Positions 11,763-62,693 of a DNA stretch of 64,000 bases are shown here, one piece after another. The DNA lies in sequence record KF147891.1; one strand, given 5' to 3'. The notes under the pieces are model-generated. The model was not told the DNA's origin. It saw only the letters and a list, made by a program, of their open reading frames with translations, and made no database searches. How positions within the stretch are numbered: the stretch's first letter is position 1; each line of letters begins with the position of its first letter. The DNA is from Pseudomonas phage PaBG. The position numbers and the translations under genes are program-made.

Positions 11763-13229
11763 CTAAGCGAGAGCGTAGTCTCCTGCGACTTCTTCCTCTT
11801 CGTCTCCGCTTCGTTTCTTTTTCTTGGATTTCCGAGGCTCATCGTCAGACTCGCTTCGTTTTCCTTTCTTGCCTTTCTTGGACTTGTCGCCTTTCCGTTT
11901 CTTGGAAGGCGCATCTTCTTCGTCATCCTCTGATGAGTAGTCAACCTGCGCATCGGGCATGTTCTCAGCGGTCATGATGTCGTACCGCTCAGCCAGCTCG
12001 AAGTTAAACACCTCACCGTCACGGTCTTTCTCAACCCGAATCGGCAAGATGCGCAGTTCACGTTGCTCTTGCTTGGTGTAGTTCCACTGCCACATGGTGT
12101 CGGCGTGTTCTTTGATACCCTTCGAGTAGCGCAGCTTATCTGTGGTATCGTCCAACTGAGCAAGGATAACCACAAGGCACTTGCTGCCTTCACGACTGAA
12201 TCGCTTGGACACGGCCGCAACTTCGGAGAGCTTGAACCACTGAGACTCGTGGTCCATGCCAGCGAGAAGGCCGATGTAGTCGATCATCACGATCTGGTAG
12301 CTGAACGGCTTGATCATGCGGTACACGTCGTCAATCGACATGGCTCGCGTTGGGCTGATCGTGGTGTAGACGATGCCGTGCTTCTGCCCGTGCTCACTGA
12401 ACAGACGGAAGGCTTCCTTGATCTTGTGCTTGTCGCCGGAGGTGAGCTTGTTCTCCTTAAACTTGTTGAACGGAATCTTCGTCAGGTGCGACGCAAGCCT
12501 TCGTGTCTCTTGTTCCTCGTCCATTTCCAAACTGATCCGACACACGGACTTGTTGGACTTGCGGTAGAGGTAAACACTCAGGTTCATCGCAACGGTCGAT
12601 TTACCACCGGACGTAGTTGCCGAGATAATGAACACGCCATGTTCTGGCAGGCCGCCGTTTCGCTTGTCGTACTCAGCATAGCCAGTCTTGATTCGCGGCT
12701 CGACCGTTCGGTTGATGATGTTGTCCACGATTTGCGCGGACGAGTCATTCGTACCGAAGTTGAGGAAGAACTGGTCATCGGCAAGGCTGGCGTTGGCGCG
12801 GCTCACAGCTTCCGTTACGTCGGAGAGCAGAGAATCAACGTCGATGTCTGGCTTGTCGAGAGCCGCGAAGCTGTCTTGGGCAATCGCGTAAATCGCACGA
12901 ATCTTGCGGTACCGCTCAAGTACATCCAGCAGGTTGCCTATCTGCTTTTTGTTCTTGCACGGCTTGGCCTTTTTAATCTGGGACTTCAATGCGTCCCGCA
13001 GGTCTTCATCGATTACAGGATCGGCAGCCAGGCTGTTGAAGTCAACGATTTCAAATCGCTTCTTGGCCAGGGTGTCGATCCGCTTGAATGCTTCGAGCGT
13101 AGGAGCATTGTGGAAATGCTCCTTACTCAGCTTACCGAGAAGGGTGCTGCGGACGCCAGCAGGGATGGACTCGTCGGTCAGTGTCTTGATGCACCGAACT
13201 TCGGAGTCCTGATCATATAGCAGCGCCAT
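11763..13229 (-). CDS. replicative DNA helicase (DnaB / T4 gp41 family) with K/E-rich C-terminal tail
   Basis: The RecA-like C-terminal domain has a Walker A (ISATTSGGKSTVAMNL) and a Walker B (IVMIDYIGLL); the N-terminal domain is helical. The tail reads SKKRKGDKSKKGKKGKRSESDDEPRKSKKKKRSGDEEEE. Confidence 0.7.
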   Translation of the reverse strand: MALLYDQDSEVRCIKTLTDESIPAGVRSTLLGKLSKEHFHNAPTLEAFKRIDTLAKKRFEIVDFNSLAADPVIDEDLRDALKSQIKKAKPCKNKKQIGNLLDVLERYRKIRAIYAIAQDSFAALDKPDIDVDSLLSDVTEAVSRANASLADDQFFLNFGTNDSSAQIVDNIINRTVEPRIKTGYAEYDKRNGGLPEHGVFIISATTSGGKSTVAMNLSVYLYRKSNKSVCRISLEMDEEQETRRLASHLTKIPFNKFKENKLTSGDKHKIKEAFRLFSEHGQKHGIVYTTISPTRAMSIDDVYRMIKPFSYQIVMIDYIGLLAGMDHESQWFKLSEVAAVSKRFSREGSKCLVVILAQLDDTTDKLRYSKGIKEHADTMWQWNYTKQEQRELRILPIRVEKDRDGEVFNFELAERYDIMTAENMPDAQVDYSSEDDEEDAPSKKRKGDKSKKGKKGKRSESDDEPRKSKKKKRSGDEEEEVAGDYALA

Positions 13230-13236
13230 GTGTCAG

Positions 13237-13638
13237 TCACTCATCAACCCAGATGGAAAGCTCCGGATACTTCTCGGTAACGGCCTTCACCCAGACGTTC
13301 CAAGGCGCACAGTCCTCGACAACATTCAGGTGAACTACTTGCCGCGTGTTGTTCGACGTCGGATTCATATCCGAGGCCGAGACGCTGCGTCGCTTGTACT
13401 TGTTGATCTTGAGGCGCTTGAACGGCGTCTCAAGAGCACGAACGGCTGCCTCGAAGTCGGGACGGTTGACGACGATGCGGTCGCTAACAATACCGAAGGC
13501 ACGGTTCGTGGTGATGTTTTGATTCTCCTTGACCACTTTGCTGATGTGAAGGAACAGCAGTCGCTTGAAGCTGTCCTCTGTTACACCGCTGAAACAGGCG
13601 AATGCAGCCTTTTCCAGAATCCAAGCGTCGGTACTCAT
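13237..13638 (-). CDS. hypothetical protein
   Basis: 133 aa; ATGA coupling with the upstream gene and a CAGGAGCG Shine-Dalgarno. Confidence 0.55.
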   Translation of the reverse strand: MSTDAWILEKAAFACFSGVTEDSFKRLLFLHISKVVKENQNITTNRAFGIVSDRIVVNRPDFEAAVRALETPFKRLKINKYKRRSVSASDMNPTSNNTRQVVHLNVVEDCAPWNVWVKAVTEKYPELSIWVDE

Positions 13639-14773: not shown

Positions 14774-15607
14774 TTAATCTCCCGATACGCTGATGATTAC
14801 GTCCCCACCGGAATCGTTGCGGCTCTTACGGGGCTTGTAGCCCTTGGCTTCACGTTCCATGTTGCGACCTTCCATCATGCCGTTCACGAGGTCAACCAGG
14901 TCAATGGTCTTCTTCTGCTTACGGCGCGGGAGTTTGTTCTCTTTGAACACCGTGTCGATGGTGGTGATCTGCCCACCTGCCGACTCGTTGGTCATGTTGA
15001 GGTCGTACTCTTCCTCACAACGCAGACGCTTGGTCAGCAACCGAGTCGTGTCAGGATCGACGAGGCGGCTCTTCGCAACCATCTTCTGGCGCAGCTCGTT
15101 GAACTCTTCCACGGTGAAAATGTGGTCTTCGTTCGTGGAGCGAGCGAAAGTGAGGTTGCACTTGCCGTCCTGAGAGGTGAGGCGGATGTACTCACTGCTC
15201 ACCGACATGATCCGCGCGATCATGAAGTTGGACAGGTAGTTGGCACCAGCAGCACCACGGTAGCGTACATAAACCTTCTGGCCGAAGTGGAACCCTGCTT
15301 TTCGAGTTTTCTTCTCGTTATACAAAAGCGAGGCCAACGCACGAAGGCCTTCTTCTGGGACCGCTTGGAATAGGGACACCAGACCGTCGAAAGCATCCCG
15401 CTTCATGAGCGGTTGTAGCGCTTTCGTGTCTGCGATGAAATGCGGGCAGGCTGCCGAGGTTGAAGTCTTGTCGATCTTCGAGCATACCTGCTTGTTATCT
15501 GCGATTAGCTTTTCACACTTGAAGCCAACGCATTCACCACAGCGGGGTTGGAGGCTTTTTAGACTTGCCTTTACCTGCTTGCGTGTGCGTGTTGTCATGT
15601 CCATCAT
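14774..15607 (-). CDS. hypothetical zinc-finger protein
   Basis: 277 aa. The N-terminus carries a C-x2-C...C...C...C-P-H cysteine cluster. Confidence 0.5.
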   Translation of the reverse strand: MMDMTTRTRKQVKASLKSLQPRCGECVGFKCEKLIADNKQVCSKIDKTSTSAACPHFIADTKALQPLMKRDAFDGLVSLFQAVPEEGLRALASLLYNEKKTRKAGFHFGQKVYVRYRGAAGANYLSNFMIARIMSVSSEYIRLTSQDGKCNLTFARSTNEDHIFTVEEFNELRQKMVAKSRLVDPDTTRLLTKRLRCEEEYDLNMTNESAGGQITTIDTVFKENKLPRRKQKKTIDLVDLVNGMMEGRNMEREAKGYKPRKSRNDSGGDVIISVSGD

Positions 15608-17388: not shown

Positions 17389-18894
17389 TTACTCGTCGTC
17401 CGCTTCTTCGCTGATGTCATCGGCCTGACGGCCTTTGGTGTTCTCGGCCTTGATCGCCAACTTCAGGAGCTTGTAGCCTTCGCCGGAGCGAACTTGCTTA
17501 CGGCACCATTCGTACAGGCGGAACGGCTTGACCTTGAACTTGGTGCAGCCCTTCTTGATCAGATCGGGCGAACCATCGATCAGTGCCTTGAACTCGATCC
17601 ACGACACGGTCTTGCCTTCGAGCGGACCGGTGAGGAACTTGAGCTTCTTGCGATTGCCGCCGAGCTGCCCAGTGTTCTTGAGGTACTGATAGGCGTCCCA
17701 GACTCGGCAGAAGCCTTTCGCGTTACCATCGGCATCGCTCACGCAGATGCGCAGCGAAATCTCTGCGGCTTGCGGACCGCCGAGCTTGTTCTTGTGCACC
17801 TTGCATTTCAGGTAACGGTACTTGTCAACGCCTTCACCGGTGATGGTGTCTTCTTCCTCGAACTGGCCCTTGGCGTGGGGAACGCTGACCGAGGTCATCT
17901 TGAGGCGGCAGTCAGAGTAGAAACGCAGCGCCTTACCGCCAGGCTCTTGTTCGGTCGGGCCGTACATTGCCATGGGGATGTCACGCAACTGGTTGATGCC
18001 CAGTACGATGATCCGCTTGGAACGCATTGCACCCTTCACGCGCGGCAGGTTTGCAGCGTGCATACGAGCCTGGGCGCCGAGCGACTTGTCACCCTCGTCC
18101 TTATCGTCGGTCTGCTTCGGCACCATTGCCGGGTACGAGTCGACCAGCACGACGGCTTGGGGACTACCGTCGGGCATTTCGATTCGGAACTTGTTGGTCT
18201 TGCGGAAGTATTCCTTGTCGTACACACCGGCGAGTGCTTTCTGGTTCGCTTTGGTGTTCTCGTAGACGCAGTAGAACTTCCCGTTCTCCTGGATTTTGTC
18301 CGGGAGAATCTTTTCGAGCTTGGCGAGGTAGTTGTAGAAGTCCTCGCCGACCGACGGAGCGTAGTAACGAACGCGCGGTTGGATGACCCAGCCTTTGTCG
18401 TCCTTCACGCCGAACACGTTGTCAACGCTCAGACGCTTGCCGTGGTTCATGTAGCGGAAGATGTTCTCGGCGTAGTCGGCCTGGAACGAACCTTCGAAGT
18501 CGTGCAGCGACGCCTTGCCGTGGAACGTGCTGTCGGTTGCGATTGCACCCATGCACGTCGTGGCGAGCGTAGACTTACACGACTGCTCGCCGCCGAAGAA
18601 CGTGTACCAACCACCAGGCAGCAGGCCGCCAGCGAGTGCAACGTCGATGGAAAGCAGGCCAGTGGATAGGCGATCTTCCGATTCGCTAACCGCCATGGAG
18701 GTAAGGCCGAACTTCTTTTCCATGGAATCGATTTCGGCGTCGAGGTGAGCATACGGATCGAACGCAGCTACTGCCGTGTCGCCCTTCTTGCCTTTCTTCG
18801 CGGTACTCACGTCGATTTCGACATCACCGCCCTTGCCTTTGCCGCGCTTGCTCTTTGCGGGAGCGTCGGCTTCGGCCTTTTTCTTCTTTGCCAT
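17389..18894 (-). CDS. RecA/UvsX-family recombinase with Lys-rich N-terminal extension
   Basis: ATG at 18894 with a GGAGAT Shine-Dalgarno (the track start is GTG). LSTGLLSIDVALAGGLLPGGWYTFFGGEQSCKSTLA aligns with the RecA block [36 protein letters not shown]. The N-terminus reads MAKKKKAEADAPAKSKRGKGKGG. Confidence 0.75.
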   Translation of the reverse strand: MAKKKKAEADAPAKSKRGKGKGGDVEIDVSTAKKGKKGDTAVAAFDPYAHLDAEIDSMEKKFGLTSMAVSESEDRLSTGLLSIDVALAGGLLPGGWYTFFGGEQSCKSTLATTCMGAIATDSTFHGKASLHDFEGSFQADYAENIFRYMNHGKRLSVDNVFGVKDDKGWVIQPRVRYYAPSVGEDFYNYLAKLEKILPDKIQENGKFYCVYENTKANQKALAGVYDKEYFRKTNKFRIEMPDGSPQAVVLVDSYPAMVPKQTDDKDEGDKSLGAQARMHAANLPRVKGAMRSKRIIVLGINQLRDIPMAMYGPTEQEPGGKALRFYSDCRLKMTSVSVPHAKGQFEEEDTITGEGVDKYRYLKCKVHKNKLGGPQAAEISLRICVSDADGNAKGFCRVWDAYQYLKNTGQLGGNRKKLKFLTGPLEGKTVSWIEFKALIDGSPDLIKKGCTKFKVKPFRLYEWCRKQVRSGEGYKLLKLAIKAENTKGRQADDISEEADDE

Positions 18895-18946: not shown

Positions 18947-20158
18947 TTACTCGTCGTCATCATCCCAGGCAGATTTCTTGCCCTTGCCGGATTTCTTCGA
19001 CTTCTTGTCCTTGGTGGATTTGTCGGACTTGGACTTCTTGCCCTTGTCAGACTTCTTGGACTTCTTCGGAGCTTCGTCCTCGTCGTCATCAGACGATTTC
19101 TTGGACTTCTTGGCCTTCTTCTTGGGCTTGTCGTCCTCGTCATCATCGTCGTCCGACTTGGACTTGGACTTCTTGCCCTTCTTCTTGGGCTTGTCATCCT
19201 CGTCCTCGTCGTCATCATCGTCGCTGAACGCCGGCTTGGACTTTTTCTTCTTCTTGGGCTTGTCGTCTTCGTCGTCATCGTCATCGGAGAACGCTTTGGA
19301 CTTCTTCTTGCCCTTCTTGCCTTTCTTCGGCTCGTCATCGTCACCGAGACTGTAGCCGTCACCGTCGTCGTCATCGTCCGGAGTATCACCGCCGACGATT
19401 TCCATGCGCTTGAAGTCTTCCAGCGCTTGCTTGGCGTCCATGCGGCCGGTGACATCGAGCAGGGTTTCGTCGAGCTTCCAGACCAGATATGCCTTCTCGT
19501 CGTCGGTGAGCGGAGTGCGCTCGTCCTTGTCGATGGAATACTTGTCGGTACCCGGAGCCTTCGGCTTGAACTTGACACGAATGTCGCAGCCGTACTTCTC
19601 GTGCGTCACGTCGAACGCTTTCTTGGCGCCGGACTTCTTGTCCTTGGCGGTGTTGCCTTCGCCGATCTCTTGGATACGGCTCGCCATGGTGGAAGTGAAG
19701 CGGCAGACGCGCACCGGAGTCCAGGACTTCGAGCGGATGTCCTTGAAGCCGGACTTCTTCTCTTCCTTGGTGTGCTCTGCCTTCTTGCGCGGCTCATCTT
19801 CCTGCAGCTCGCGGATGATGGCGTTGCCCAGGTAGAAGAACTCGTAGCGAGCGCTGCCGTCCTTGCCGTGAGTCAGGTCGCAGTACGGGCACTTGACTTC
19901 TTTGCCCTTCGCGTCTTTGCGCGGCTCGCCTTCGTGGTTCGGGTCGAACGCGATGCAGTAGCGCGGGATGGTGATTTCTTTCTTTTCCTTACCAGCAAGG
20001 ATGCTGATCCAGTGACGCTTCACTGGCAGAATCTTGCCGGGCAGGCAACGAATCTGCGACCACTCGTCAGCCGGAAACTTGTGCAGTTCGATCACTTCAT
20101 CCAGCTTGACCGAATCCTTGTTACCGGTGCGTGGTTGGAGAGTTCCAAATCCACTCAT
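18947..20158 (-). CDS. gp32-like ssDNA-binding protein with long block-polyampholyte C-terminal tail
   Basis: The core reads IRCLPGK...RYCIAFDPNHEGEPRKDAKGKEVKCPYCDL, a C/H/C/C zinc motif with spacing like T4 gp32 (IRFLPSK...). The C-terminal roughly 170 aa alternate D5-8 blocks with K-rich blocks, for example DDDDDEDDKPKKKKKSKPAFSDDDDDEDEDDKPKKKGKK. Confidence 0.65.
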   Translation of the reverse strand: MSGFGTLQPRTGNKDSVKLDEVIELHKFPADEWSQIRCLPGKILPVKRHWISILAGKEKKEITIPRYCIAFDPNHEGEPRKDAKGKEVKCPYCDLTHGKDGSARYEFFYLGNAIIRELQEDEPRKKAEHTKEEKKSGFKDIRSKSWTPVRVCRFTSTMASRIQEIGEGNTAKDKKSGAKKAFDVTHEKYGCDIRVKFKPKAPGTDKYSIDKDERTPLTDDEKAYLVWKLDETLLDVTGRMDAKQALEDFKRMEIVGGDTPDDDDDGDGYSLGDDDEPKKGKKGKKKSKAFSDDDDDEDDKPKKKKKSKPAFSDDDDDEDEDDKPKKKGKKSKSKSDDDDDEDDKPKKKAKKSKKSSDDDEDEAPKKSKKSDKGKKSKSDKSTKDKKSKKSGKGKKSAWDDDDE

Positions 20159-21718: not shown

Positions 21719-22375
21719 TTACAGGTTCTGCTCCAGAGCAATCTTGGCAAGCGCGATGATGTGCTTGCAGCAGCCTGGTGCCAGACGAGGGTTGGTGAAG
21801 TTGGGTGCTTCGCCGTTGGAGTAGATCAAGCGACTAGCACCGACCGATGCGTTGGCGTACTCGAAGACGTAGACGAAGTTTTCGCAGGTGCACTGTACCA
21901 GCACCTTGTTGTGTCGATTGACTGGTAGCTTGTCGTCGTCACCCATGCCGATGATGTACGTCTCGTGGACTCGGCGCACGCGATTCTGCCGCCAGACATC
22001 GTAGGTGACCATGTGGCCCATGATCACAGGACGATGCGTCTTGGTAAACTTGCGCTCAATCTTCTTGGCTTCAACGTCAACCGCATTGTTGATGAACAGA
22101 CGCGGAGTGGCACGAATCAGTTGACGCAGCGTCATGCCTTTCTTCGACGCAGCAGTCTCAGGCAGTTGTCGGACAGGCATTGCCTCCAAGCGCTTGAGCC
22201 TGTAAGGCATGCCGGACGCCAGACGTTCTTTCCCGGGCCGCTTCGATTTGAACACGACTGCCTTCTTCGACTTCATGCGCTCTTGCGTCTTCTCCGCGGT
22301 GCGCTTGGCATCGGACTTACGCCCTGAGGTGTTCTTGCGACTTTTGGCAAGCGGCTTGTACGGCTTCTTCGCCAT
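21719..22375 (-). CDS. SWIM-type zinc-finger protein with basic N-terminus
   Basis: A GGAGGTAGC Shine-Dalgarno. The C-terminus has CTCENF...GCCKHIIA, matching the SWIM pattern C-x-C-x(n)-C-x-H. Confidence 0.5.
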   Translation of the reverse strand: MAKKPYKPLAKSRKNTSGRKSDAKRTAEKTQERMKSKKAVVFKSKRPGKERLASGMPYRLKRLEAMPVRQLPETAASKKGMTLRQLIRATPRLFINNAVDVEAKKIERKFTKTHRPVIMGHMVTYDVWRQNRVRRVHETYIIGMGDDDKLPVNRHNKVLVQCTCENFVYVFEYANASVGASRLIYSNGEAPNFTNPRLAPGCCKHIIALAKIALEQNL

Positions 22376-24995: not shown

Positions 24996-25604
24996 TCAAT
25001 CCAGGTCGTCGAAGTCCTCGAAGTCGTCATCCGACTTCGACTTCTTGTCCGCCTTCTTGGACTTCTTGCCTTCGGCTTTTTCAGCCTTGGCCTTCTTGGC
25101 TTTCTTGTCCTTCTTGGACTCGGCCTTGGCCGACTTGTCGGACTTCTTGCCTTCGGCTTTCTCGGCCTTGGCTTTCTTGTCCTTCTTCACCGGCTTGTCG
25201 GCCTTCTCGGCTTTCTTGGACTTCTTGCTGTCGCCCTTGTCAGCCTTGGCTTTCTTGCCTTCGGCCTTCTCGGCCTTGGCCTTCTTGTCGGACTTCTTGC
25301 CTTCGCCCTTGGCCGGCTTGTCAGCCTTCTCGGCTTTCTTGGACTTCTTGCCCTCGGCTTTCTCGGCCTTGGCTTTCTTGTCCTTCTTGGCCGGCTTGTC
25401 AGCCTTGGCCTTCGCCGGAGCGGCGGCGCCGTCAGCAGTCAGCTTCTCGACGGCCTTGATCTGGGCTTGGGTGCCTTTCAGGCTTTCCTGCGCGGTCTTG
25501 AGCGCTTTCTCCAGGGCAGCAACGGTGCCCTTGGCAGCACGTTCTTCCTTACGCAGGCGGGAAACTTCCTGCTTCTTGTTGATGAGTACGTCGTTCTTGG
25601 CCAT
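24996..25604 (-). CDS. histone H1-like lysine-rich protein (coiled-coil N-terminus, KAEKAEGKKSKK repeats, acidic C-terminus)
   Basis: Start at MAKNDVLINKK. Roughly 150 aa carry repeated AKAEKAEGKKSKK units, and the protein ends DDDFEDFDDLD. Confidence 0.6.
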   Translation of the reverse strand: MAKNDVLINKKQEVSRLRKEERAAKGTVAALEKALKTAQESLKGTQAQIKAVEKLTADGAAAPAKAKADKPAKKDKKAKAEKAEGKKSKKAEKADKPAKGEGKKSDKKAKAEKAEGKKAKADKGDSKKSKKAEKADKPVKKDKKAKAEKAEGKKSDKSAKAESKKDKKAKKAKAEKAEGKKSKKADKKSKSDDDFEDFDDLD

Positions 25605-25793: not shown

Positions 25794-26246
25794 TCAGTCG
25801 AAGTCTTCTTCGTCTTCTTCGTCTTCTTCCTCGTCGTCGTCTTCTTCTTCCTCGTCGTCCTCGTCCTCGTCCTCGTCGTCGTCCTCGTCGTCGTCATCTT
25901 CCTCGTCGTCGTCTTCTTCTTCCTCGTCGTCTTCCTCGTCGTCCTCGTCCTCGTCGTCTTCTTCCTCGTCGTCCTCGTCGTCGTCCTCGTCTTCTTCTTC
26001 CTCGTCGTCCTCGTCCTCGTCGTCTTCTTCCTCGTCGTCCTCGTCTTCTTCTTCCTCGTCGGACTCATCGTCCTCCTCGGTCACGTCGGGAGCCTGCTCG
26101 GCGACGAGTGCGATGGCCTCGTCGATGGTGTCGGCACCGGCTTCCTTCATCTGTTGCAGCAGCGAGAGCAGCGCGATGGCCAGGCCGGCGGTCAGGTCGA
26201 AGTTGATTTCTTTGGCTTTGGACTTGGTGGATTTCTTCTTGGCCAT
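25794..26246 (-). CDS. poly-acidic protein (about 100-residue Asp/Glu tract)
   Basis: Start at MAKKKSTKSKAKEINFD with a TGGAG Shine-Dalgarno. A short helical domain is followed by a continuous D/E tract encoded by a roughly 270-bp (GAN)n trinucleotide run. Confidence 0.6.
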   Translation of the reverse strand: MAKKKSTKSKAKEINFDLTAGLAIALLSLLQQMKEAGADTIDEAIALVAEQAPDVTEEDDESDEEEEDEDDEEEDDEDEDDEEEEDEDDDEDDEEEDDEDEDDEEDDEEEEDDDEEDDDDEDDDEDEDEDDEEEEDDDEEEDEEDEEDFD

Positions 26247-26348: not shown

Positions 26349-26933
26349 TTAGTCGTCCAGATCGTCGTCGTCTTCGTCGGCCTTTTTCTTCTTGCCCTTC
26401 TTGGACTTCTTGCCTTCGGCTTTCTCGGCCTTGGCTTTCTTGTCCTTCTTGGACTTCTTGCCTTCACCGCCGGCAGCGGCTTCGTCTTCGGCGCGAACTT
26501 CGATGCGAACATCGTCGCGTTGATACAGCTTCACAGTTTCACCGGAAGCGGTCTGGATGGTCATGATGCCACCCTTGTCTTCGACCAGGCGACCGACAAC
26601 TTCGCGGATGGCGACTTCGCGGAACACGGTCACAGCGGAGACTTCGCCGACGGCGCCGAACACTTCGACGACATCGCTACGGGAGAAGCGGCTGACCACA
26701 GTCTTCTGCGAAGCGCTGGTACGCTTGTGGCGCAGCATGACCGCGTCGGTGCCGTCTTGAACCAGGAAGCCACCGATTTCGACAGCTTGGCGAGCGAACA
26801 CGGTGAACGTGAACATCGCGGACTTGGCCTTGAAGCTGGTCTTGGCGCTGATGTTCTTCAGGCGCTTGGCGATCTTGTCGGTACGGGACAGGCGATTCGC
26901 GGTATTGCGCTTTTTCGTTTTGTCTTTTGCCAT
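26349..26933 (-). CDS. DNA-binding-like protein with tandem small beta-barrels and H1-like KAEKAEGKKSKK tail
   Basis: Start at MAKDKTKKRN with an AAGGTGAG Shine-Dalgarno. The C-terminus KKSKKDKKAKAEKAEGKKSKKGKKKKADEDDDDLDD is paralogous to the tail of 24996..25604. Confidence 0.6.
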   Translation of the reverse strand: MAKDKTKKRNTANRLSRTDKIAKRLKNISAKTSFKAKSAMFTFTVFARQAVEIGGFLVQDGTDAVMLRHKRTSASQKTVVSRFSRSDVVEVFGAVGEVSAVTVFREVAIREVVGRLVEDKGGIMTIQTASGETVKLYQRDDVRIEVRAEDEAAAGGEGKKSKKDKKAKAEKAEGKKSKKGKKKKADEDDDDLDD

Positions 26934-33645: not shown

Positions 33646-34071
33646 TTAGTTTGCAGCTTGCTTCGACGCGGCCTTGGCTGCCGGCTTGGCAGTTGGCTTG
33701 GTGGCTTTGGCCGGCAGCGGCTTGGCCACGGTCTTCTTGCCGACGCTCGGCTTGGCTGCCGGCTTGGTGGCTTTAGCCGGCAGCGGCTTGGCTACTTTCT
33801 TGGCTTCGGGCTTGGCAGCCGGCTTGACTGCCGGAACCTTCTTCACCGGCTTGGCAGCCACGGTGTTCGCGGCCTTGGTGGCAGCTTGTGCCTTGGTCAG
33901 CACGGCTTGCACGCCGTTGATGGCCTTGTCGAGTTCGTGCTGGGCGGCAACCAGTTTCTTCTCCAGTGCCGCCACGTTCTTCACGGCGCGAGTGTAGTTG
34001 CGACCGGCGGCGTCCAGTTCTTTGCGGACAGCTTTCGCGGAGGTCAGAGCTTGTTCGATTTTCTGAGTCAT
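33646..34071 (-). CDS. histone H1 / AlgP-like protein (coiled-coil + AKPxx repeats)
   Basis: Start at MTQKIEQALTSAKAV with an AAAGGAAC Shine-Dalgarno. The C-terminus has repeated KPAAKP / KPLPAKATKP units. Confidence 0.55.
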   Translation of the reverse strand: MTQKIEQALTSAKAVRKELDAAGRNYTRAVKNVAALEKKLVAAQHELDKAINGVQAVLTKAQAATKAANTVAAKPVKKVPAVKPAAKPEAKKVAKPLPAKATKPAAKPSVGKKTVAKPLPAKATKPTAKPAAKAASKQAAN

Positions 34072-44910: not shown

Positions 44911-45778
44911 GGGCCACACCGTAAACGATGTCGTCGATCACGTCGCTGAGGTACTGGCCAGGTTGCAGTACCACATGCACGCAGCCCTGTTGCTTGGCAC
45001 ACGACTCCAGGAACTTGTCCCAGTTGGTGTACATCAAATCGAGGAAGGCTTTCGGGCTACCGCGGTTCAGATAGCGCAGCATGTAGTCATCCTTCTGATC
45101 TGCGGTCGGGTAGACCAGGATGAAGTCGAAGCCTTGTTCTTCCAGCTCGTCGCGCACCTCGAAATGGCTGGACACCAGAGTCACATCGTTCTTGGGTGCA
45201 ATCTCCCGAATGTGGGCAATGTAGTTGTTCGGGAAGTCATCCTTCGGGAACTGCGACGAATCACTGTCGGAACAGACCAGGCCCTTCAGGTGACACAGTG
45301 CAGACTTGCCAATGCCAGGAAAGCCGCTGATGATCACCGGGCCTTTTCCAGCAGCAGTAGCAGCCAGCCGGCGGATGCGACGCTTGCCAGAAGTGAGCTG
45401 ATTGCTGCGGCCGCCAGCACTTGCAGCAGCCTCTTCGGAGTCTTCGGAGTCTTCGTCCTCTTCTTCGCCTTCATCGGATTCGTCTCCGGAATCGGCGTCT
45501 TCGTCAGAGTCATCCTCTTCTTCCTCTTCCTCGCTGTCATCGCCGCCGCCGAGGTCTTCATCTTCCTCTTCGGCATCACCGTCGGCTTTGGGCTTCTCTT
45601 TTTCCTTGACCTTTTTCTTGGCCAGTTCGAGTTCCTCAGCCTTGCGGTTCTTTTCGATCTGCTCCAGTTCTTCGTCACTGGGTAGCAGTTGTTGGGCGCC
45701 ACGACCAGCAGTTTGATCGACAGTGCCGTACATGTTGGAATTGGCCTCGGCGGAACTGAGCGGTACGTTGATCTTCAT
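44900..45778 (-). CDS. P-loop kinase (NMP / polynucleotide-kinase-like) with K/acidic-rich N-terminus
   Basis: A TAGGAGTTCC Shine-Dalgarno. Walker A PVIISGFPGIGKSALCHL. The N-terminal region reads KKKVKEKEKPKADGDAEEEDEDLGGGDDSEEEEEEDDSDED. Confidence 0.5.
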   Translation of the reverse strand: MKINVPLSSAEANSNMYGTVDQTAGRGAQQLLPSDEELEQIEKNRKAEELELAKKKVKEKEKPKADGDAEEEDEDLGGGDDSEEEEEEDDSDEDADSGDESDEGEEEDEDSEDSEEAAASAGGRSNQLTSGKRRIRRLAATAAGKGPVIISGFPGIGKSALCHLKGLVCSDSDSSQFPKDDFPNNYIAHIREIAPKNDVTLVSSHFEVRDELEEQGFDFILVYPTADQKDDYMLRYLNRGSPKAFLDLMYTNWDKFLESCAKQQGCVHVVLQPGQYLSDVIDDIVYGVAQQS

Positions 45779-49594: not shown

Positions 49595-50233
49595 TTAGGA
49601 CTTCCGCCGGCGCTTCTTGGTCTTTTTCTGCTTGGGTAAATGCGCAGGCAGAAAGTTGATCGGAGGTGCAGAGGACAATGCCTTGAGTAGTTTCGCCTCT
49701 TTCTCGCGTGTATCGATGAAGGAGAAAGGACGCACACCCAGCAGCTTGCAGCCGACGTAGATGCCGAGCAACATCGAATCCAGTTGGTGGATGGCGATCT
49801 TGGTCAGCTTCTCTTTACGCAGGTCAGCAAGGTCAAGGTACATTTCCTTCAGGTCGGCGTATCGATTGAACTCGTTCTTCCACACACCTGCCGTGATGAA
49901 GTCGGCGTTCTTGATGTGGTTAGACTGCTGAGCCATGCAGCCCAACATGCAGTTCACGGACTCAATCGTTGGACCTTTACCGCCACGAGCTTGGAAGCGC
50001 TCTGCTACAAACGCATCCAGATTCTCAACCTCGAACAACGGTTGGACGTAATCGCGGAACGTATTCAACGAACTCCGCATGGTCTTCATATCTTTCAGCA
50101 GACGCTGCGGATCAAGCATCGTCGTGCCTTCGCACTTGAACTGGAATCGGTTGTTTGCCCATCGCAAGCGCATGATCGACACTGCGAAATTGGATGTTCC
50201 TGGGTCCATTGCGAGAATGCGCAGATCAGTCAT
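49595..50233 (-). CDS. RuvC-like Holliday-junction resolvase with basic C-terminal tail
   Basis: Start at MTDLRILAMDPGTSNFAVSIM with a GAAGGAGTG Shine-Dalgarno; this N-terminus is the RuvC-family motif (IlGIDPG...G). The C-terminus reads KQKKTKKRRRKS. Confidence 0.55.
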   Translation of the reverse strand: MTDLRILAMDPGTSNFAVSIMRLRWANNRFQFKCEGTTMLDPQRLLKDMKTMRSSLNTFRDYVQPLFEVENLDAFVAERFQARGGKGPTIESVNCMLGCMAQQSNHIKNADFITAGVWKNEFNRYADLKEMYLDLADLRKEKLTKIAIHQLDSMLLGIYVGCKLLGVRPFSFIDTREKEAKLLKALSSAPPINFLPAHLPKQKKTKKRRRKS

Positions 50234-58681: not shown

Positions 58682-58689
58682 GTTTCATA

Positions 58690-58765: not shown

Positions 58766-58766
58766 T

Positions 58767-60688: not shown

Positions 60689-61192
60689 ATGCTTGGATTA
60701 TTCGGCAACGTGACTGTGAAGAAAGGCAAGCGGAAACGCAAATTCAAGAAGTACCGCCAGTACGAATACGATTTCTACGGGCGCAAGCTGGTGCTGCAAG
60801 GCTACGAAGCACAAGCGCTTGAGTACCTTGTCGAAGTCGGCGGGTTCGATCCTGCGGACATCAAGACCGAGTGCGAGTTCGGCGACGCCCTGAACATCCG
60901 TTACAAGTATTCGGGCAAATGGCGTTCCTACATGCCTGACATTTTCATCCGCAACCACAACATCATCGTCGAAGTGAAGTCGAAATCCACGATGGGCTTG
61001 TTGAACAACAAGAAGCGTGGTTGGTCGATGAACCAAGCCAAGGCGAAGGCGTGCCATGCCCGCGGTTTCAAGTTCTGCGTGCTTCTGATGACCGACTCAG
61101 GCAAGCGCATTCCGCTGCCGAAGAACTGGCCGCTGATGAAGAAGGCGGAGTGCCTGCGCATCATGCGTGAGGAGCTTGGAGTTCGCATCTAA
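60689..61192 (+). CDS. PD-(D/E)xK endonuclease, T7 endonuclease I / TnsA-N-like (candidate junction-resolving or homing nuclease)
   Basis: Start at MLGLFGN after an ATGAGGAGATTTGCC Shine-Dalgarno. YMPDIFIRNHNIIVEVKSKS carries the D-x9-E-V-K core. Confidence 0.5.
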   Translation: MLGLFGNVTVKKGKRKRKFKKYRQYEYDFYGRKLVLQGYEAQALEYLVEVGGFDPADIKTECEFGDALNIRYKYSGKWRSYMPDIFIRNHNIIVEVKSKSTMGLLNNKKRGWSMNQAKAKACHARGFKFCVLLMTDSGKRIPLPKNWPLMKKAECLRIMREELGVRI

Positions 61193-61231: not shown

Positions 61232-61879
61232 ATGAGCATTACCTACAAGTACGGAAACGGCAAGTTGATCGGCTACCGTTCCGTAGACAAGTTTCATGGT
61301 GGCCTGTCGTTCAAGTTTCATCCAGACGGCGGAGACTCGTTCGATCGGTTCATCGACAAGGGTTTGATTCTCGAAATCAAAACTCAGTACGGTGAGCAAA
61401 CGATCGCGCTGAAACGGAACGACTACCGCGTAGTTCCCGAGCTGTGGAACTGCACCACGCTGATTTTCCAGAGTAACGAGTTGGCGCGCTCGCTCCACCT
61501 TGCTCTCGACGTTGAAGGCTTCCTGCACGTTTCGACACACAGCACGGCGACCCTTGCCGCTGAGTTGGCGAGCACCATCACGCACCAGCTGGCAACACCG
61601 TTCATGAAGCGCAAGCAGATTGACGTGCATCTGCGTAGTGAGCCCAGCGTCATCGCGCATTCCATTCTTCGGTGCATCGGGCTCAACCGATTCGCACCCG
61701 GCATGGACGTCAAGACGTTCTACCAACAGCATACGCCAGAAGCAGCCTACTCTGCGCTGTGTGCGTGGCTGAGCAACAAAGACCTTCGCGTGAACTTCCT
61801 GCCGCATGATGGCACGAAGCGCGCCGCATTCGTTTCTCGCATTGGCGAGAATGTTTTGGAGTTCGCCGAACAGGCGTAA
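61232..61879 (+). CDS. hypothetical protein
   Basis: 215 aa. An AAACTGTAAACTCC motif lies 31 nt upstream. Confidence 0.55.
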   Translation: MSITYKYGNGKLIGYRSVDKFHGGLSFKFHPDGGDSFDRFIDKGLILEIKTQYGEQTIALKRNDYRVVPELWNCTTLIFQSNELARSLHLALDVEGFLHVSTHSTATLAAELASTITHQLATPFMKRKQIDVHLRSEPSVIAHSILRCIGLNRFAPGMDVKTFYQQHTPEAAYSALCAWLSNKDLRVNFLPHDGTKRAAFVSRIGENVLEFAEQA

Positions 61880-61896
61880 GCAAATAGGACCCATCA

Positions 61897-62693
61897 TGGC
61901 AGCCGTACGTAAACTATCCGACCTGAAAGAAGCTGGCTACAACCCGCGCGTCATCAGCAGCAAGCGCCTCAGCAACCTGCACAAGTCCATGACGACCTAC
62001 GGCGACCTGAGCGGCGTCGTGTTCAACGTCAAGACCAAGACCCTGATTTCCGGCCACCAGCGCCTCAAGCCGCTGCGTGATGCTGGCATCAAAGTCGAAA
62101 TCAAGACCAAGCCCATCACCGACAAGTTCGGCACTGTAGCCGAAGGCTACGTCGTCGCCAAGACCAGCGCCGGCGAGCTGCGCATCCCGTACCGCGAAGT
62201 ATCCTGGAGCGACAAGAAAGCCGAGTACGCTGCCAACATCGCTGCAAACGCTCACGGCGGTGACTTCGACCGCACCAAGCTCGGTACCCTGCTGGCTGCT
62301 CTGGAGAAGGGCAAGTCGTTCGACATCGACGTTCTGGGTCTCGATCCGTTGAGCGTGCGCAGCCTGATGCCGAAGATGCCGAACGTCGAAGGTAGCGGTG
62401 ACGATGACGGTGAATCGTTCCAAGAGTACGGCGAGGACAGCTTCGAGTTCGATCATCAGTGCCCGAAGTGCAAGTTCCAGTTCAACTCCAGCTCTGCAAG
62501 CAAGCCCAAGAAGGACAAGCCGCAACCCAAGGCGCCGAAGCTCGACGTGAAGAAGGCCAAAGCCGAAGTCAAAGCCAAGAAGATCAAGGCTGAGAAGAAG
62601 ACCGACAGCAAGGCCAAGTCCAGCGCCGCAAAAGAATCGCTGAAAAAAGCGAAGTCCAGTAAGCTCAAGGCCAAGATCAAGAAGGCCAAGTAA
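61897..62693 (+). CDS. ParB-like nuclease-domain protein with zinc ribbon and histone-like Lys-rich tail
   Basis: Start at MAAVRKLSDLKEAGYNPR. ISGHQRLKPLRDAGI matches the ParB/Srx signature GxRRxxA. CPKCKFQF is a zinc ribbon. The tail reads KPKKDKPQPKAPKLDVKKAKAEVKAKKIKAEKK... Confidence 0.6.

What the first reader, a model, noticed from the sequence alone, without database searches (positions are those of the whole stretch)
11763..62693. Proteome-wide decoration of DNA-metabolism proteins with Lys-rich and Asp/Glu-rich low-complexity extensions
Beyond the dedicated H1-like genes, charged low-complexity tails are appended to many DNA-metabolism enzymes:
- The DnaB-like helicase has a K/E-rich C-terminus.
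- The RecA/UvsX recombinase has a K-rich N-terminus.
- The SSB has its block tail.
- The P-loop kinase has a K-block followed by an acidic N-terminus.
- The SAP-motif protein 30328..31650 carries such a region.
- The AKP-repeat protein 33646..34071 carries one.
- The RuvC-like resolvase ends KQKKTKKRRRKS.
- The ParB-like protein has an H1-like tail.
Several end in acidic tips (DDLD, DDDE, DYALA) reminiscent of SSB-tip interaction motifs. This looks like a shared addressing or partitioning code, for example recruitment into a common replication compartment or condensate, or onto DNA, rather than independent accidents.
Basis: seen in the sequence. Interest (0 to 1): 0.7.

Follow-up and report, generated by a model that had tools for sequence, protein, structure and literature searches.

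The report
Charged tails on phage replication proteins
In the giant Pseudomonas phage PaBG and its whole clade of relatives, many DNA-handling enzymes carry floppy lysine-rich or alternating lysine/aspartate tails whose sequence drifts freely while their charge and a few short end motifs are kept, which points to a selected electrostatic "belonging" tag and not to chance.

Summary
The window is Pseudomonas jumbo phage PaBG, bases 64001-128000.

**In the window**
- Of 73 annotated proteins, 13 carry a terminal K/R-rich stretch, against 4 expected. That is 9 of 17 DNA-related proteins and 4 of 56 others.
- Five proteins end in acidic tips.

**Across relatives**
- All but 2 of 120 listed RecA homologs (42-99% identity) have an N-terminal tag of about 30% K/R.
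- Almost all listed TopoII-A homologs have one too.
- 94 of 136 tailed SSB-family representatives have alternating K/D block tails.
- Tag sequence decays to the shuffled baseline while composition stays constant.
- The RuvC tag sits at the C-terminus here and at the N-terminus in Lu11.
- In Lu11, tags sit on 12 of 24 DNA enzymes and on none of 34 structural or metabolic proteins.
- T4 orthologs lack them.

**New finding:** a short motif, [VIL][DE][VIL][ST] (for example IDVSG), is embedded between K blocks and is shared by tags of unrelated enzymes.

**Most likely mechanism (inferred):** disordered polycationic DNA/polyanion tethers, together with acidic interaction tips like the C-terminal domain of T4 gp32, form a multivalent charge network at replicating phage DNA. 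A dedicated address signal or a condensate remains possible but untested.

I found no earlier description. I class it as a new variant of a known kind.

The parts
11766..11948 (-). DnaB helicase C-terminal tail (aa 428-488): an acidic run, K blocks, an acidic run, then the conserved end motif [DE]YALA
   Evidence: PF03796 covers aa 180-415 only. The tail is net neutral and blocky (kappa ~0.58, z=7.7). In relatives with ~82% core identity the K/D part is rearranged, but the ..YS[SE]ED.. entry and the ..[DE]YALA end are kept. Lu11 has a non-alignable K-rich tail.
18763..18894 (-). RecA N-terminal tag (aa 1-44): K block, then VEIDVS, then K block
   Evidence: AF2 gives pLDDT<50 for aa 1-40 and about 90 for the core. 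115 homolog tags are 0.30±0.05 K/R and net positive in 112 of 115; tag identity falls to the shuffled baseline. The motif occurs in 40 of 115 tags against 4.6 expected.
17392..17418 (-). RecA acidic C-terminal tip (..DDISEEADDE)
   Evidence: pLDDT<50 for aa 493-501. Nearly all listed homologs end ..DDE, DEE or AED.
18950..19393 (-). SSB tail (aa 256-403): alternating D blocks and K blocks, ending in the conserved tip WDDDDE
   Evidence: The core has the gp32 fold (Foldseek 2a1k E=2e-6, 1gpc E=1.4e-5). The tail has pLDDT ~50 and no secondary structure. NCPR is -0.02, kappa ~0.53, z=11.6. A 63-nt tandem unit is present. 94 of 136 tailed family representatives have >=4 alternating blocks. The tip is kept in close relatives.
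22226..22375 (-). SWIM-like protein gp120: K/R-rich N-terminal tag (about 50 aa)
   Evidence: 9 K/R in 20. Orthologs in Lu11, NCTB and JA29 have N-tags; the BcepSauron ortholog has a basic C tail instead.
24999..25412 (-). H1-like protein gp124: K/A/E-rich repeat region plus the acidic-aromatic tip DDDFEDFDDLD
   Evidence: phrog_36478, with no Pfam histone family hit. 42-51-nt tandem units are present. The repeat region varies while the tip DDDF[DE]DFD[DE]L[DE] is kept in relatives. Charges are well mixed, kappa ~0.13.
25797..26246 (-). Polyacidic protein gp125: K-rich N-tag MAKKKSTKSKAKE, a short helical segment, and about 100 aa of D/E ending EEDFD
   Evidence: Lu11 gp164 has the same architecture. 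The gene lies between the H1-like gene and gp126.
26352..26933 (-). gp126 (Lu11 gp163-like): K-rich N-tag, folded middle, K-rich C tail, and the acidic tip DEDDDDLDD
   Evidence: phrog_22271. Tagged at both ends (N 9, C 12 of 20). The tip DDDLDD is kept in relatives. No solved homolog was found by sequence.
14777..14947 (-). TopoIB-like protein (Lu11 gp183 homolog): basic C-terminal region ending ..GDVIISVSGD
   Evidence: Relatives end ..KIDVSGE..RIDVSGD or ..LIISVSGD. This is the same motif as in the RecA and TopoII-A tags.
30610..31437 (-). gp131: K/R-rich region (31228-31437) and two long acidic regions (30610-31020) flanking a helical LKKIARKLGL motif
   Evidence: Charge is strongly segregated (z=11.8). 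Lauda_095 is a related acidic protein that lies between SSB and RecA in phage Lauda.
33649..33876 (-). gp136: A/K/P-rich C-terminal tail behind a helical N-domain
   Evidence: Lu11 gp154 has the same layout. Its N-domain is weakly similar to that of gp124.
41480..41602 (-). Topoisomerase II subunit A N-terminal tag (aa 1-41): K block, then VQIEVS, then K block
   Evidence: PF00521 starts at aa 74. Nearly all 120 homologs (56-99% identity) have K-rich N-tags. The motif [VIL][DE][VIL][ST] occurs in 17 of 100 distinct tags against 1.5 expected.
43577..43618 (-). Topoisomerase II subunit B short N-terminal tag MAKEKIKKGKKSAS
   Evidence: The Lu11 ortholog has a longer tag of about 35 aa.
45422..45646 (-). 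P-loop protein gp151: K block followed by a long acidic run, N-terminal to the Walker A fold
   Evidence: Walker A GFPGIGKS at aa 152. Low-complexity segments found. z=5.3.
49598..49645 (-). RuvC-like resolvase C-terminal tag AHLPKQKKTKKRRRKS
   Evidence: phrog_18317. 20 of 26 homologs have >=8 K/R in the last 20 aa, behind a conserved ..LPK... Lu11 carries the tag at the N-terminus, BcepSauron at both ends, and JA29 at neither.
60704..60769 (+). TnsA/Vsr-like endonuclease N-terminal tag ..VKKGKRKRKFKKYRQ..
   Evidence: PF08722/DUF7487. 10 K/R in 20.
62484..62690 (+). ParB-like nuclease C-terminal K-rich tail containing ..KAPKLDVKKAK..
   Evidence: phrog_620 covers aa up to about 230. 10 K/R in 20. 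The motif is flanked by K blocks on both sides.

Best explanation
The tails are selected, intrinsically disordered charge modules. They are a clade-wide trait of PaBG/Lu11-type jumbo phages (the 'Lupandier' group and its wider relatives). They fall into three classes.

1. **Net-positive K/A-rich tags.** These sit on RecA, topoisomerase II A and B, RuvC, the ParB-like and TnsA-like nucleases, the SWIM protein and others. They most likely act as non-specific polyanion (DNA) tethers that keep these enzymes concentrated on replicating phage DNA.
2. **Net-neutral blocky K/D tails.** These sit on the gp32-type SSB and on DnaB, in the position of the acidic protein-interaction domain of T4 gp32. They offer many acidic, tip-like sites and end in conserved short motifs (WDDDDE, [DE]YALA) that probably dock partner proteins.
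3. **Polyanionic proteins (gp125, gp131, gp151) and the H1-like/gp126 proteins with acidic-aromatic tips.** These supply the counter-charges.

Together they would form a multivalent electrostatic network, a replication/recombination 'factory' around phage DNA.

Shown here: presence, disorder, compositional conservation, restriction to DNA-transaction proteins, positional flexibility, and conserved end motifs. Inferred: DNA or polyanion binding, K-tag to acidic-block pairing, and any factory or condensate. The tails arise and turn over by tandem duplication of short units.
For: **Conservation without sequence**
- RecA tags in 115 homologs are 0.30±0.05 K/R, against 0.14 in the core. They are net positive in 112 of 115.
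- Tag identity is 0.21-0.25, at the shuffled baseline of 0.20, once core identity drops below 65%.
- TopoII-A tags behave likewise.
- SSB block tails are found in 94 of 136 tailed family representatives.
- The tails are also present in Lu11, NCTB, JA29, BcepSauron, Motura, Lauda and RHEph12.

**Specificity**
- Window: 9 of 17 DNA-related proteins tagged against 4 of 56 others, p=1e-4.
- Lu11: 12 of 24 DNA enzymes against 0 of 34 structural plus metabolic proteins, p=3e-6.
- T4 orthologs are untagged.

**Position independence:** RuvC carries the tag at the C-terminus here and at the N-terminus in Lu11. For primase, Lu11 and JA29 have C tags while PaBG has a weak N extension.

**Disorder:** AF2 pLDDT is below 50 for the RecA tag and tip, and about 50 for the SSB tail.

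**SSB**
- The core has the gp32 fold, so the tail replaces the acidic C-terminal domain of gp32.
- 22 of 136 relatives end in a DDIPF-like bacterial SSB tip (Motura).

**Charge patterning:** SSB tail NCPR -0.02 with kappa ~0.53 (z=11.6). DnaB tail kappa ~0.58.

**Conserved end motifs in otherwise hypervariable tails**.

**Origin:** tandem repeat units of 15-63 nt underlie the tails.

**General precedent:** K-rich low-complexity regions are typical of DNA-binding proteins (topoisomerases, Ku, histone-like proteins) and bind DNA non-specifically (PMC6821194).
Against: - There is no binding, localisation or genetic evidence for any of these proteins.
- Several core DNA enzymes lack tags: FEN, sigma, and in Lu11 Pol I, the clamp, the clamp loader, the ligase and topo I. 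Tagging is therefore not a general requirement for acting on phage DNA.
- Some tagged proteins are not obvious DNA binders: the polyacidic gp125 and the Lu11 peptidase gp123. A plain DNA tether does not explain these well.
- A DNA tether would not distinguish phage DNA from host DNA.
- The embedded, conserved [VIL][DE][VIL][ST] motif suggests something more specific than bulk charge.
- The enrichment inside this single window is moderate at the lenient threshold (13 against 4.1, shuffle maximum 11).
Confidence: 0.5

Rival explanations
1. **Specific address signal.** The K block-[VIL][DE][VIL][ST]-K block unit is a linear, transferable targeting motif. A phage-encoded hub or receptor reads it, or a compartment boundary does. 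The motif, not bulk charge, brings the enzymes together.
For: - The motif occurs in 40 of 115 RecA tags against 4.6 expected (maximum 12 of 500).
- It occurs in 17 of 100 TopoII-A tags against 1.5 expected (maximum 7 of 500).
- It is at the extreme C-end of the topoIB-like protein in 5 of 6 relatives.
- It is in the tags of Lu11 peptidase gp123, RuvC and DnaB, in the ParB-like tail here, and in PaBG gp198 outside the window.
- Both exact IDVS occurrences found in the stored PaBG proteome file lie inside N-terminal K tags.
- Tags on non-DNA-binding proteins fit an address better than a tether.
Against: - Most tags lack a recognisable copy (75 of 115 RecA tags, 83 of 100 TopoII-A tags).
- The motif is short and degenerate.
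- The counts include related sequences, so they are not independent events.
- Within one genome there are only 2-5 instances.
- No candidate receptor was identified.
- Jumbo phages outside Chimalliviridae are described as unlikely to build a protein nucleus, and known phage-nucleus import does not use terminal linear signals (PMC13282480).
Confidence: 0.2
2. **Phase-separated replication compartment.** The blocky SSB and DnaB tails, together with the polycation/polyanion pairs (H1-like gp124 with polyacidic gp125), drive complex coacervation. The K tags are client signals that partition enzymes into this condensate.
For: - The SSB and DnaB tails are net neutral with strongly segregated charge (kappa 0.53-0.58, 0 of 1000 shuffles reach it).
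- Genes for a polycation and a polyanion are adjacent, and this is conserved in Lu11.
- There are multiple acidic, tip-like repeats per SSB.
- Precedents: E. coli SSB phase separation through its disordered linker (bioRxiv 10.1101/2022.01.17.476650, listed), and metazoan replication initiator disordered regions that co-partition with DNA (PMC8813052, listed).
Against: - The argument is purely compositional.
- High-charge disordered regions can stay soluble at cellular salt.
- H1-like gp124 is well mixed (kappa 0.13).
- No imaging exists for this phage group.
- This rival overlaps with the best explanation and is not separable from it by sequence.
Confidence: 0.15
3. **Polyphosphate binding.** The K-rich tags and the PASK-like (acidic/Ser/Lys) SSB tail bind polyphosphate. 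This ties the replication machinery to polyP granules or to phage-made polyP.
For: - Lu11 encodes a putative polyphosphate kinase (gp158) inside the syntenic module.
- The host's own H1-like protein AlgP localises to polyP granules in P. aeruginosa (PMC9239181).
Against: - No PPK homolog is in this window: no window protein hits Lu11 gp158.
- K tags would bind any polyanion.
- There is no evidence that infection induces polyP.
Confidence: 0.07
4. **Capsid targeting or pro-peptide.** The K tag plus motif directs proteins into the prohead to be co-packaged and injected with the DNA, or is a cleavable pro-peptide.
For: - PaBG virion proteins are proteolytically processed, and a helicase-like protein (gp202) is a major virion band (PMC7412058).
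- PaBG gp198 and Lu11 gp104 carry the K tag plus IDVSG-like motif and lie next to head genes.
- Lu11 peptidase gp123 is tagged.
Against: - None of the 14 major virion bands is a tagged protein of this window.
- SSB, DnaB, primase and RuvC are classical intracellular replication proteins.
- Many tags are C-terminal or are long block tails.
- The motif sits in the middle of the tags, so cleavage there would leave half a tag.
Confidence: 0.05
5. **Neutral by-product.** The tails are slippage-generated low-complexity junk tolerated at protein ends. Alternatively, MAK... starts merely boost translation initiation.
For: - Tandem DNA repeat units underlie the tails.
- Tail lengths and sequences turn over fast.
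- Protein termini are generally hotspots for low-complexity regions (PMC11285758, listed).
- Some proteins gain or lose tags: Lu11 peptidase gp123 is tagged and PaBG gp182 is not; JA29 RuvC is untagged.
Against: - Presence and composition persist from 99% down to about 30% core identity.
- There is a strong bias towards DNA-transaction proteins, with none on 34 structural or metabolic proteins.
- End motifs are strictly conserved within variable tails.
- The tag is retained when it moves to the other terminus.
- Lys codons in tags are 76% AAG, the same as elsewhere, so there is no AAA run or A-rich ramp. C-terminal tags cannot affect initiation.
- The stringently defined low-complexity regions of that survey are rare in phages, 116 in 102 proteomes (PMC6821194).
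Confidence: 0.05

Closest known systems
T4/RB69 gp32 acidic C-terminal domain, and the bacterial SSB disordered linker plus acidic tip (SSB-Ct, ..DDDIPF)
   Same: - The SSB core here has the gp32 fold.
- The tail sits where gp32 carries its acidic, disordered, protein-recruiting C-terminal domain (role from established knowledge of T4).
- It ends in a conserved acidic tip.
- 22 of 136 family representatives, and phage Motura, end in a DDIPF-like tip as in bacterial SSB. E. coli SSB recruits at least 17 partners through that tip (PMC10018359, listed).
   Different: - The tail is 150 aa or more of alternating D blocks and K blocks. It is net neutral, unlike the purely acidic gp32 domain or the Gly/Gln/Pro-rich bacterial linker.
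- The PaBG tip WDDDDE lacks the terminal hydrophobic residues.
- Many relatives end in a basic block instead (47 of 136).
Lysine-repeat tails of actinobacterial DNA proteins (Streptomyces/Mycobacterium topoisomerase I, Ku, HU/HupB), and K-rich low-complexity regions of DNA-binding proteins in general
   Same: They are terminal, disordered, K/A/P-rich low-complexity extensions on DNA enzymes, with composition conserved but not sequence. They are reported to give non-specific DNA binding and processivity (PMC6821194 and the references cited there).
   Different: - Here the host is a phage clade.
- A dozen different enzymes are decorated in concert: RecA, type II topoisomerase, RuvC, helicase, nucleases.
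- The tags are often N-terminal.
- They are paired with acidic blocks, tips and dedicated polyanionic proteins.
- They contain a shared short motif.
T7 gp4 helicase and gp2.5 SSB acidic C-terminal tails
   Same: The helicase and the SSB both end in acidic tails with a conserved terminal motif, which in T7 dock onto basic patches of the polymerase (established knowledge, not tested here). PaBG DnaB ends ..EEEEVAGDYALA and its SSB ends ..WDDDDE, and both ends are conserved.
   Different: The PaBG tails also contain long K blocks, and their partners are unknown.
Linker histone H1 / prothymosin-alpha type polycation-polyanion pairs, and the bacterial H1-like proteins (Chlamydia Hc1, Pseudomonas AlgP)
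   Same: gp124 and gp136 have K/A/P-rich H1-like tails. An extreme polyacidic protein (gp125) is encoded next to gp124. AlgP of the host genus is a comparable H1-like protein (PMC9239181). An H1-like gene has been noted in another jumbo-phage lineage (PMC12619734).
   Different: No Pfam histone H1/Hc1 family matches, so the resemblance is compositional. gp124 carries its own acidic-aromatic tip. The function is untested.
Disordered regions of metazoan replication initiators (ORC, Cdc6, Cdt1) that co-partition on DNA
   Same: Several replication proteins share a class of disordered region. This makes them assemble together with DNA (PMC8813052, abstract listed).
   Different: That system is eukaryotic, has a different composition, and is experimentally shown. 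Here there is only sequence evidence.
Protein import into the chimallin phage nucleus (Imp1/PicA)
   Same: It is also a jumbo-phage solution for gathering replication and recombination enzymes around phage DNA.
   Different: That import uses surface features, not terminal linear signals. Chimallin phages form a separate monophyletic family with their own RNA polymerases (PMC13282480). PaBG and Lu11 use a sigma factor. Chimallin was not searched for here.

Membership tests
K-rich low-complexity DNA-binding tails | A terminal, low-complexity, lysine-rich extension outside the catalytic domain | tested here: met
   The domains found by Pfam and PHROGs exclude the tags. K/R is >=8-12 of 20 within 50 aa of an end.
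K-rich low-complexity DNA-binding tails | Intrinsic disorder | tested here: met
   AF2 pLDDT is below 50 and no secondary structure is predicted for RecA aa 1-40. The SSB tail has pLDDT ~50.
K-rich low-complexity DNA-binding tails | Composition conserved among homologs while sequence is not | tested here: met
K-rich low-complexity DNA-binding tails | Non-specific DNA binding by the tail | not testable with these tools
   This needs gel-shift or anisotropy assays with and without the tags.
gp32-type SSB with an acidic C-terminal interaction domain | gp32 core fold | tested here: met
   Foldseek gives RB69 gp32 2a1k at E=2e-6 (probability 1.00) and T4 gp32 1gpc at E=1.4e-5. phrog_15004 matches at E=2e-154.
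gp32-type SSB with an acidic C-terminal interaction domain | A purely acidic C-terminal domain | tested here: not met
   The tail is net neutral (f+ 0.32, f- 0.34) with alternating blocks.
Bacterial SSB-Ct tip | An extreme C-terminus of acidic residues followed by hydrophobic residues (..DDDIPF) | tested here: not met
   PaBG ends ..SAWDDDDE. The motif is met in Motura (..DDDIPF) and in 22 of 136 family representatives.
Histone H1 / Hc1 family | A match to the family profile (for example PF07432 or PF00538) | tested here: not met
   Pfam gave no family for gp124, and only weak coiled-coil hits below threshold for gp136.
Blocky polyampholyte (phase-separating) disordered region | A high fraction of charged residues, near-zero net charge, and strong charge segregation | tested here: met
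   SSB tail kappa ~0.53 (z=11.6). DnaB tail kappa ~0.58 (z=7.7). None of 1000 shuffles reach these values.
Blocky polyampholyte (phase-separating) disordered region | Actual phase separation | not testable with these tools
   This needs purified protein or live-cell imaging.
Chimallin-type phage nucleus with selective import | The genome encodes chimallin and the Imp1/PicA import factor | not tested
   Only 64 kb of PaBG and 200 kb of Lu11 were examined, and no chimallin query sequence was available. The literature places chimallin phages in a separate family.
Chimallin-type phage nucleus with selective import | Cargo is recognised by surface patches, not by terminal linear signals | tested here: not met
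   Here the shared feature is a terminal linear tag. The defining property is taken from PMC13282480.
Classical bipartite nuclear localisation signal | Two basic clusters separated by a spacer of about 10-12 aa | tested here: inconclusive
   The RecA tag (KSKRGKGK-11 aa-KKGKKG) and the TopoII-A tag (KKTKKEKTR-13 aa-KKVKKGKGK) look like this, but the pattern is easily met by any K-rich tag.
Classical bipartite nuclear localisation signal | Read by importin in a eukaryotic host | tested here: not met
   The hosts are bacteria: PaBG infects P. aeruginosa and Lu11 infects P. putida.

The most novel reading that the evidence does not exclude
The K block-[VIL][DE][VIL][ST]G-K block unit is a genuine, transplantable localisation signal. 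A still unidentified phage factor would read it, and the blocky SSB tail and the polycation/polyanion proteins would act as scaffold. On this reading, PaBG/Lu11-type jumbo phages, which are not known to build a chimallin shell, would assemble a membrane-less replication compartment addressed by a linear peptide code. That would be a bacterial-virus counterpart of nuclear localisation signals.
Probability: 0.18. Interest if true: 0.85.

Novelty: new variant of a known kind. Interest (0 to 1): 0.62.

Why it matters
How large phages without a protein nucleus organise replication, recombination and packaging in the cytoplasm is essentially unknown. This clade infects Pseudomonas, Erwinia, Dickeya, Burkholderia, Achromobacter, Rhizobium and other hosts. 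It offers a sequence-readable handle on the question:

- a set of about a dozen enzymes marked by the same kind of disordered charge tag;
- an SSB whose interaction domain has been expanded into a multivalent K/D block copolymer;
- dedicated polycationic and polyanionic proteins;
- conserved short end motifs.

This makes several questions directly testable with short peptides and GFP fusions:

- Do phages use polyelectrolyte networks or condensates as replication factories?
- Is there a linear targeting code?
- How do disordered regions evolve under compositional constraint?

If the tags prove portable, they could also serve as tools to deliver proteins to phage DNA. If the tags turn out to be plain DNA tethers, the result is still a clean natural example of coordinated tail acquisition, but it would be of more modest interest.

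Tried and rejected
- **Naive longest-ORF gene calling.** It picked many antisense ORFs in this 55% GC DNA. I replaced it with codon-usage scoring, a ribosome-binding-site check of starts, and finally the published PaBG gene list.
- **A lenient low-complexity threshold of 6 K/R in 12.** It was uninformative: 24 observed against 14-17 in shuffles. I replaced it with terminal windows of 20 aa and stricter cut-offs.
- **Megablast against the phage collection.** It found almost nothing. PaBG itself is apparently not in that collection. Identity came from an exact protein match and from the coordinates in the paper's supplement.
- **Eukaryotic-virus or nuclear-localisation reading.** Rejected: the hosts are bacteria, and the gene content is that of a tailed phage (terminase, portal, gp5-like spike).
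- **Membrane-targeting amphipathic helices.** Rejected on composition (K, A, V, E, S, P, T, G) and on the absence of any predicted helix.
- **Translation-ramp idea for MAK... starts.** Rejected by codon usage and by the existence of C-terminal tags.
- **T4-type prohead-protease cleavage motif ([LI]xE).** It does not fit IDVS-type motifs (reasoning only).
- **Sequence search of solved structures for gp126 and for SSB.** Nothing found.
- **Pfam.** No family for gp120, gp124, gp125, gp126 or gp131.
- **Rfam.** Only the five tRNAs.
- **Virion proteomics list beyond the 14 major bands.** Not among the held supplements, so the packaging rival could not be tested further.
- **Literature searches.** None found any description of these tags in this phage group.

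Full report
**What the window is.** The 64-kb window is a replication, recombination and packaging module of a jumbo phage.
- Its RuvC-like protein is 100% identical to the Holliday junction resolvase of Pseudomonas phage PaBG.
- The gene coordinates in the PaBG re-annotation equal window coordinates plus 64000. For example, RecA PaBG_00116 at 81389-82894 is window 17389-18894.
- The closest record in the phage collection is Pseudomonas phage Lu11. It is syntenic but inverted, with 30-68% protein identity.
- PaBG, Lu11, NCTB and the Dickeya and Erwinia jumbo phages form the 'Lupandier' group (PMC7412058).
- Pfam and PHROGs confirm DnaB, RecA, type II topoisomerase subunits A and B, primase, a 5'-3' exonuclease, a PD-(D/E)XK nuclease, a C5 methylase, a RuvC-like resolvase, a ParB-like protein, a TnsA-like endonuclease, a sigma factor, the terminase and an SSB.
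- An AF2 model of the SSB (core pLDDT above 90) matches the RB69 and T4 gp32 cores.

So do both topoisomerase II subunits, the SWIM-like gp120, gp126, the TnsA-like endonuclease and the topoIB-like protein.
- Using the published gene calls, 13 of 73 proteins have at least 8 K/R in a 20-aa window within 50 aa of a terminus, against 4.1 in proteome shuffles.
- At thresholds of 9 and 10 the counts are 10 against 1.07 and 6 against 0.25.
- On my own gene calls (61 proteins), five end in acidic tips against 0.56 in proteome shuffles, whose maximum in 500 also reached 5.
- Tags fall on 9 of 17 DNA-related proteins and on 4 of 56 others (p=1.1e-4).
- The same measure applied to the T4 replication region flags none of gp39, gp41, UvsX, gp61, Dda, gp43, gp44/62, gp45 or gp46/47, although T4 has more lysine overall.
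- 'Proteome-wide' overstates the case. FEN, sigma, the Cas4-like nuclease, primase and the methylase are untagged or weakly tagged here.

**The tails are a conserved clade trait, not accidents.**
- *Named relatives.* In Lu11 the DnaB tail, the RecA tag and tip, the SSB block tail, both topoisomerase tags, and the SWIM, gp163, polyacidic and H1-like proteins all have the same kind of extension, though none of it aligns. The same holds in NCTB, JA29 and BcepSauron, and in the more distant Motura, Lauda and RHEph12, down to about 30% RecA identity.
- *RecA.* Of 120 listed homologs (42-99% identity), all but two, which are apparently N-terminally truncated (402 and 426 aa), start with a basic tag. 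Nearly all end in an acidic tip.
- *RecA tag numbers.* Over the 115 tags of 10-130 aa, the median length is 38 aa (range 12-128). K/R fraction is 0.30±0.05 against 0.14 in the core. Net charge is positive in 112. Pairwise tag identity is at the shuffled baseline (0.21-0.25 against 0.20) once core identity is below 65%.
- *TopoII-A.* Homologs show the same pattern.
- *SSB family.* Of 150 representatives, 136 have tails. 103 of these are rich in both K/R and D/E, and 94 have at least four alternating blocks.
- *Close relatives.* At about 82% core identity the tails differ by indels and block rearrangements, but the end motifs are strictly kept: DnaB ..[DE]YALA, SSB ..WDDDDE, H1-like ..DDDF[DE]DFD[DE]L[DE], gp126 ..DDDLDD.
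- *Position can change while presence is kept.* The RuvC tag is C-terminal in PaBG and in most of its 26 homologs. It is N-terminal in Lu11, at both ends in BcepSauron, and absent in JA29.
- *Lu11 proteome.* Over 243 proteins in 1-200 kb, tags occur on 12 of 24 annotated DNA enzymes, on 0 of 26 structural or lysis proteins, and on 0 of 8 metabolic enzymes (p=3e-6).

**A shared short motif inside the tags.**
- Many tags have the layout K block, then [VIL][DE][VIL][ST], then K block.
  - RecA: ..KGKGGDVEIDVSTAKKGKKG.. here. Elsewhere IDVSG, LDLSPK and VDLKESV.
  - TopoII-A: ..AADVQIEVSNKKVKKGKGK.. here. Elsewhere IDVSG, VDVST and VELSS.
- The motif occurs in 40 of 115 RecA tags against 4.6 expected, and in 17 of 100 distinct TopoII-A tags against 1.5 expected.
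- It forms the extreme C-terminus of the topoIB-like protein: IISVSGD here and IDVSG[DE] in relatives.
- It recurs in the ParB-like tail here, in the Lu11 RuvC, DnaB and peptidase tags, and in PaBG gp198 outside the window.
- These counts include related sequences and the motif is short. I treat it as a strong lead, not as an established signal.

**Physical nature of the tails.**
- AF2 predicts the RecA tag (aa 1-40) and tip (aa 493-501) as disordered, with pLDDT below 50 next to a confident core. The SSB tail has pLDDT ~50 and no secondary structure.
- The segments fall into three classes:
  - net-positive tags;
  - net-neutral, strongly charge-segregated tails (SSB kappa ~0.53, z=11.6; DnaB kappa ~0.58);
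  - polyanions (gp125, gp131, gp151).
- H1-like gp124 is a well-mixed polycation with an acidic-aromatic tip.
- The SSB tail occupies the position of the acidic protein-interaction domain of gp32. It contains several internal tip-like junctions (..KAFSDDDDD.., ..PAFSDDDDD..).
- Relatives such as Motura end in the canonical bacterial SSB tip DDDIPF.
- At the DNA level the tails are built from tandem units of 15-63 nt.
- Lys codons in the tails are 76% AAG, as elsewhere.

**Interpretation.**
- The best-supported reading is that these are selected, disordered charge modules.
- The polycationic tags most plausibly tether the enzymes to DNA or to another polyanion. This is the established role of K-rich low-complexity tails in topoisomerases, Ku and histone-like proteins (PMC6821194).
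- The acidic blocks and conserved tips of SSB, DnaB, gp124 and gp126 would provide docking sites, as in gp32, bacterial SSB and T7 gp4/gp2.5.
- Together with the dedicated polyanionic proteins, this gives a multivalent electrostatic network around replicating phage DNA.
- Presence, disorder, conservation, specificity and positional flexibility are shown. Binding and assembly are inferred.
It is untested, so I give it lower weight.
- The other rivals each have some support and clear weaknesses: polyphosphate binding (Lu11 encodes a PPK2, and host AlgP sits on polyP granules), capsid targeting, and neutral slippage or translation effects.

**Novelty.**
- K-rich DNA-binding tails, SSB acidic tips and H1-like bacterial proteins are all known. 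An H1-like gene has been noted in another jumbo-phage lineage (PMC12619734).
- I found no description of coordinated charge tagging of the DNA-transaction enzymes in this phage clade, of the K/D block tail as a hallmark of its gp32-type SSB family, or of the shared motif. I looked in the PaBG paper, two jumbo-phage reviews and full-text searches.
- The PaBG annotation labels the polyacidic protein 'similar to Utp1' and the H1-like protein 'hypothetical'.
- The stringently defined low-complexity regions of one large survey are otherwise rare in phages, 116 in 102 proteomes.
- I therefore class this as a new variant of a known kind, of moderate to high interest. Its value depends on whether the tags prove to be more than DNA tethers.

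Noticed in passing
window 56228-56303, 58295-58388, 58606-58681, 58690-58765, 58767-58843: PaBG is reported to have exactly five tRNA genes, and all five are here: Thr-UGU, Ala-UGC, Lys-UUU twice, and Asp-GUC. Lys, Ala and Asp are the residues that dominate the tags. The low-complexity segments are 7% of codons but hold 23% of all Lys. The tRNA-Ala is unusually long (94 nt) and scores lowest in Rfam (48.9 bits).
   Followed up: partly
window 52153-53629 and about 56800-59128: The published annotation has two CDS-free stretches: one of 1.5 kb, and one of about 2.3 kb around the tRNA cluster. Rfam finds nothing there apart from the tRNAs.
   Followed up: partly
L002 (IMG/VR 3300001592_000028) 3297-4975 and 16298-19850; Lu11 gp188; proteins P0118, P0119, P0164, P0207: Relatives carry intein-like insertions in the same genes. 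The SWIM-protein gene in L002 is split by an insert ending ..VIAHN. TerL is 1183 aa in L002 and 976 aa in Lu11, against 720 aa here. Some RecA and TopoII-A homologs carry the intein domain PF14890.
   Followed up: no
window 55448-56098 (+): This protein has a Tad2-like (Thoeris anti-defence 2) domain, PF11195, E=2.8e-12. It is annotated as hypothetical in PaBG.
   Followed up: no
window 14774-15607 (-): The published start of PaBG_00113 (window 15406) is probably too far downstream. Orthologs in Lu11 and in five IMG/VR relatives align from the upstream start at 15607, which adds a Cys-rich N-terminal region. The published product name, 'topoisomerase 4 subunit A', is not supported by Pfam.
   Followed up: partly
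window 30328-31650 (-); L014 3727-4533 (phage Lauda): gp131 and Lauda_095 are acidic proteins that repeat a helical motif of the type D[LV]xxLKK[IL]A[RK]xLG..K..D.EA[VI]IA (SAP/HeH-like). In Lauda the gene lies between SSB and RecA. Pfam finds no family.
   Followed up: no
window 24996-25604 (-) and 33646-34071 (-): The helical N-domains of the two H1-like tail proteins, gp124 and gp136, are weakly similar: 47% identity over 36 aa, pairwise E=5e-4. They may be paralogs.
   Followed up: partly
window 24996-26933 (-): Three neighbouring genes encode a polycation with an acidic tip (gp124), an extreme polyanion with a K tag (gp125), and a protein with K tags at both ends plus an acidic tip (gp126). 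The order and architecture are conserved in Lu11 gp165, gp164 and gp163. This looks like a dedicated charge-scaffold cassette.
   Followed up: partly
PaBG 146334-147146 (outside the window); Lu11 75761-76528: PaBG gp198 begins MPKLKTKTKGDRRIDVSGVDVDERG.. and continues K-rich. Its Lu11 counterpart gp104 sits beside an HNH gene and the head genes. It is the same tag-plus-motif design in a possible head-associated protein.
   Followed up: no
Lu11 93938-95104 compared with PaBG 130572-131537: Lu11 peptidase gp123 carries a long K tag with two motif copies (LDLQ and IDVSG). The PaBG Zn-metalloprotease gp182, which I take to be its ortholog from annotation and gene order only (not aligned), has none. 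If so, tags are gained and lost on individual proteins.
   Followed up: partly
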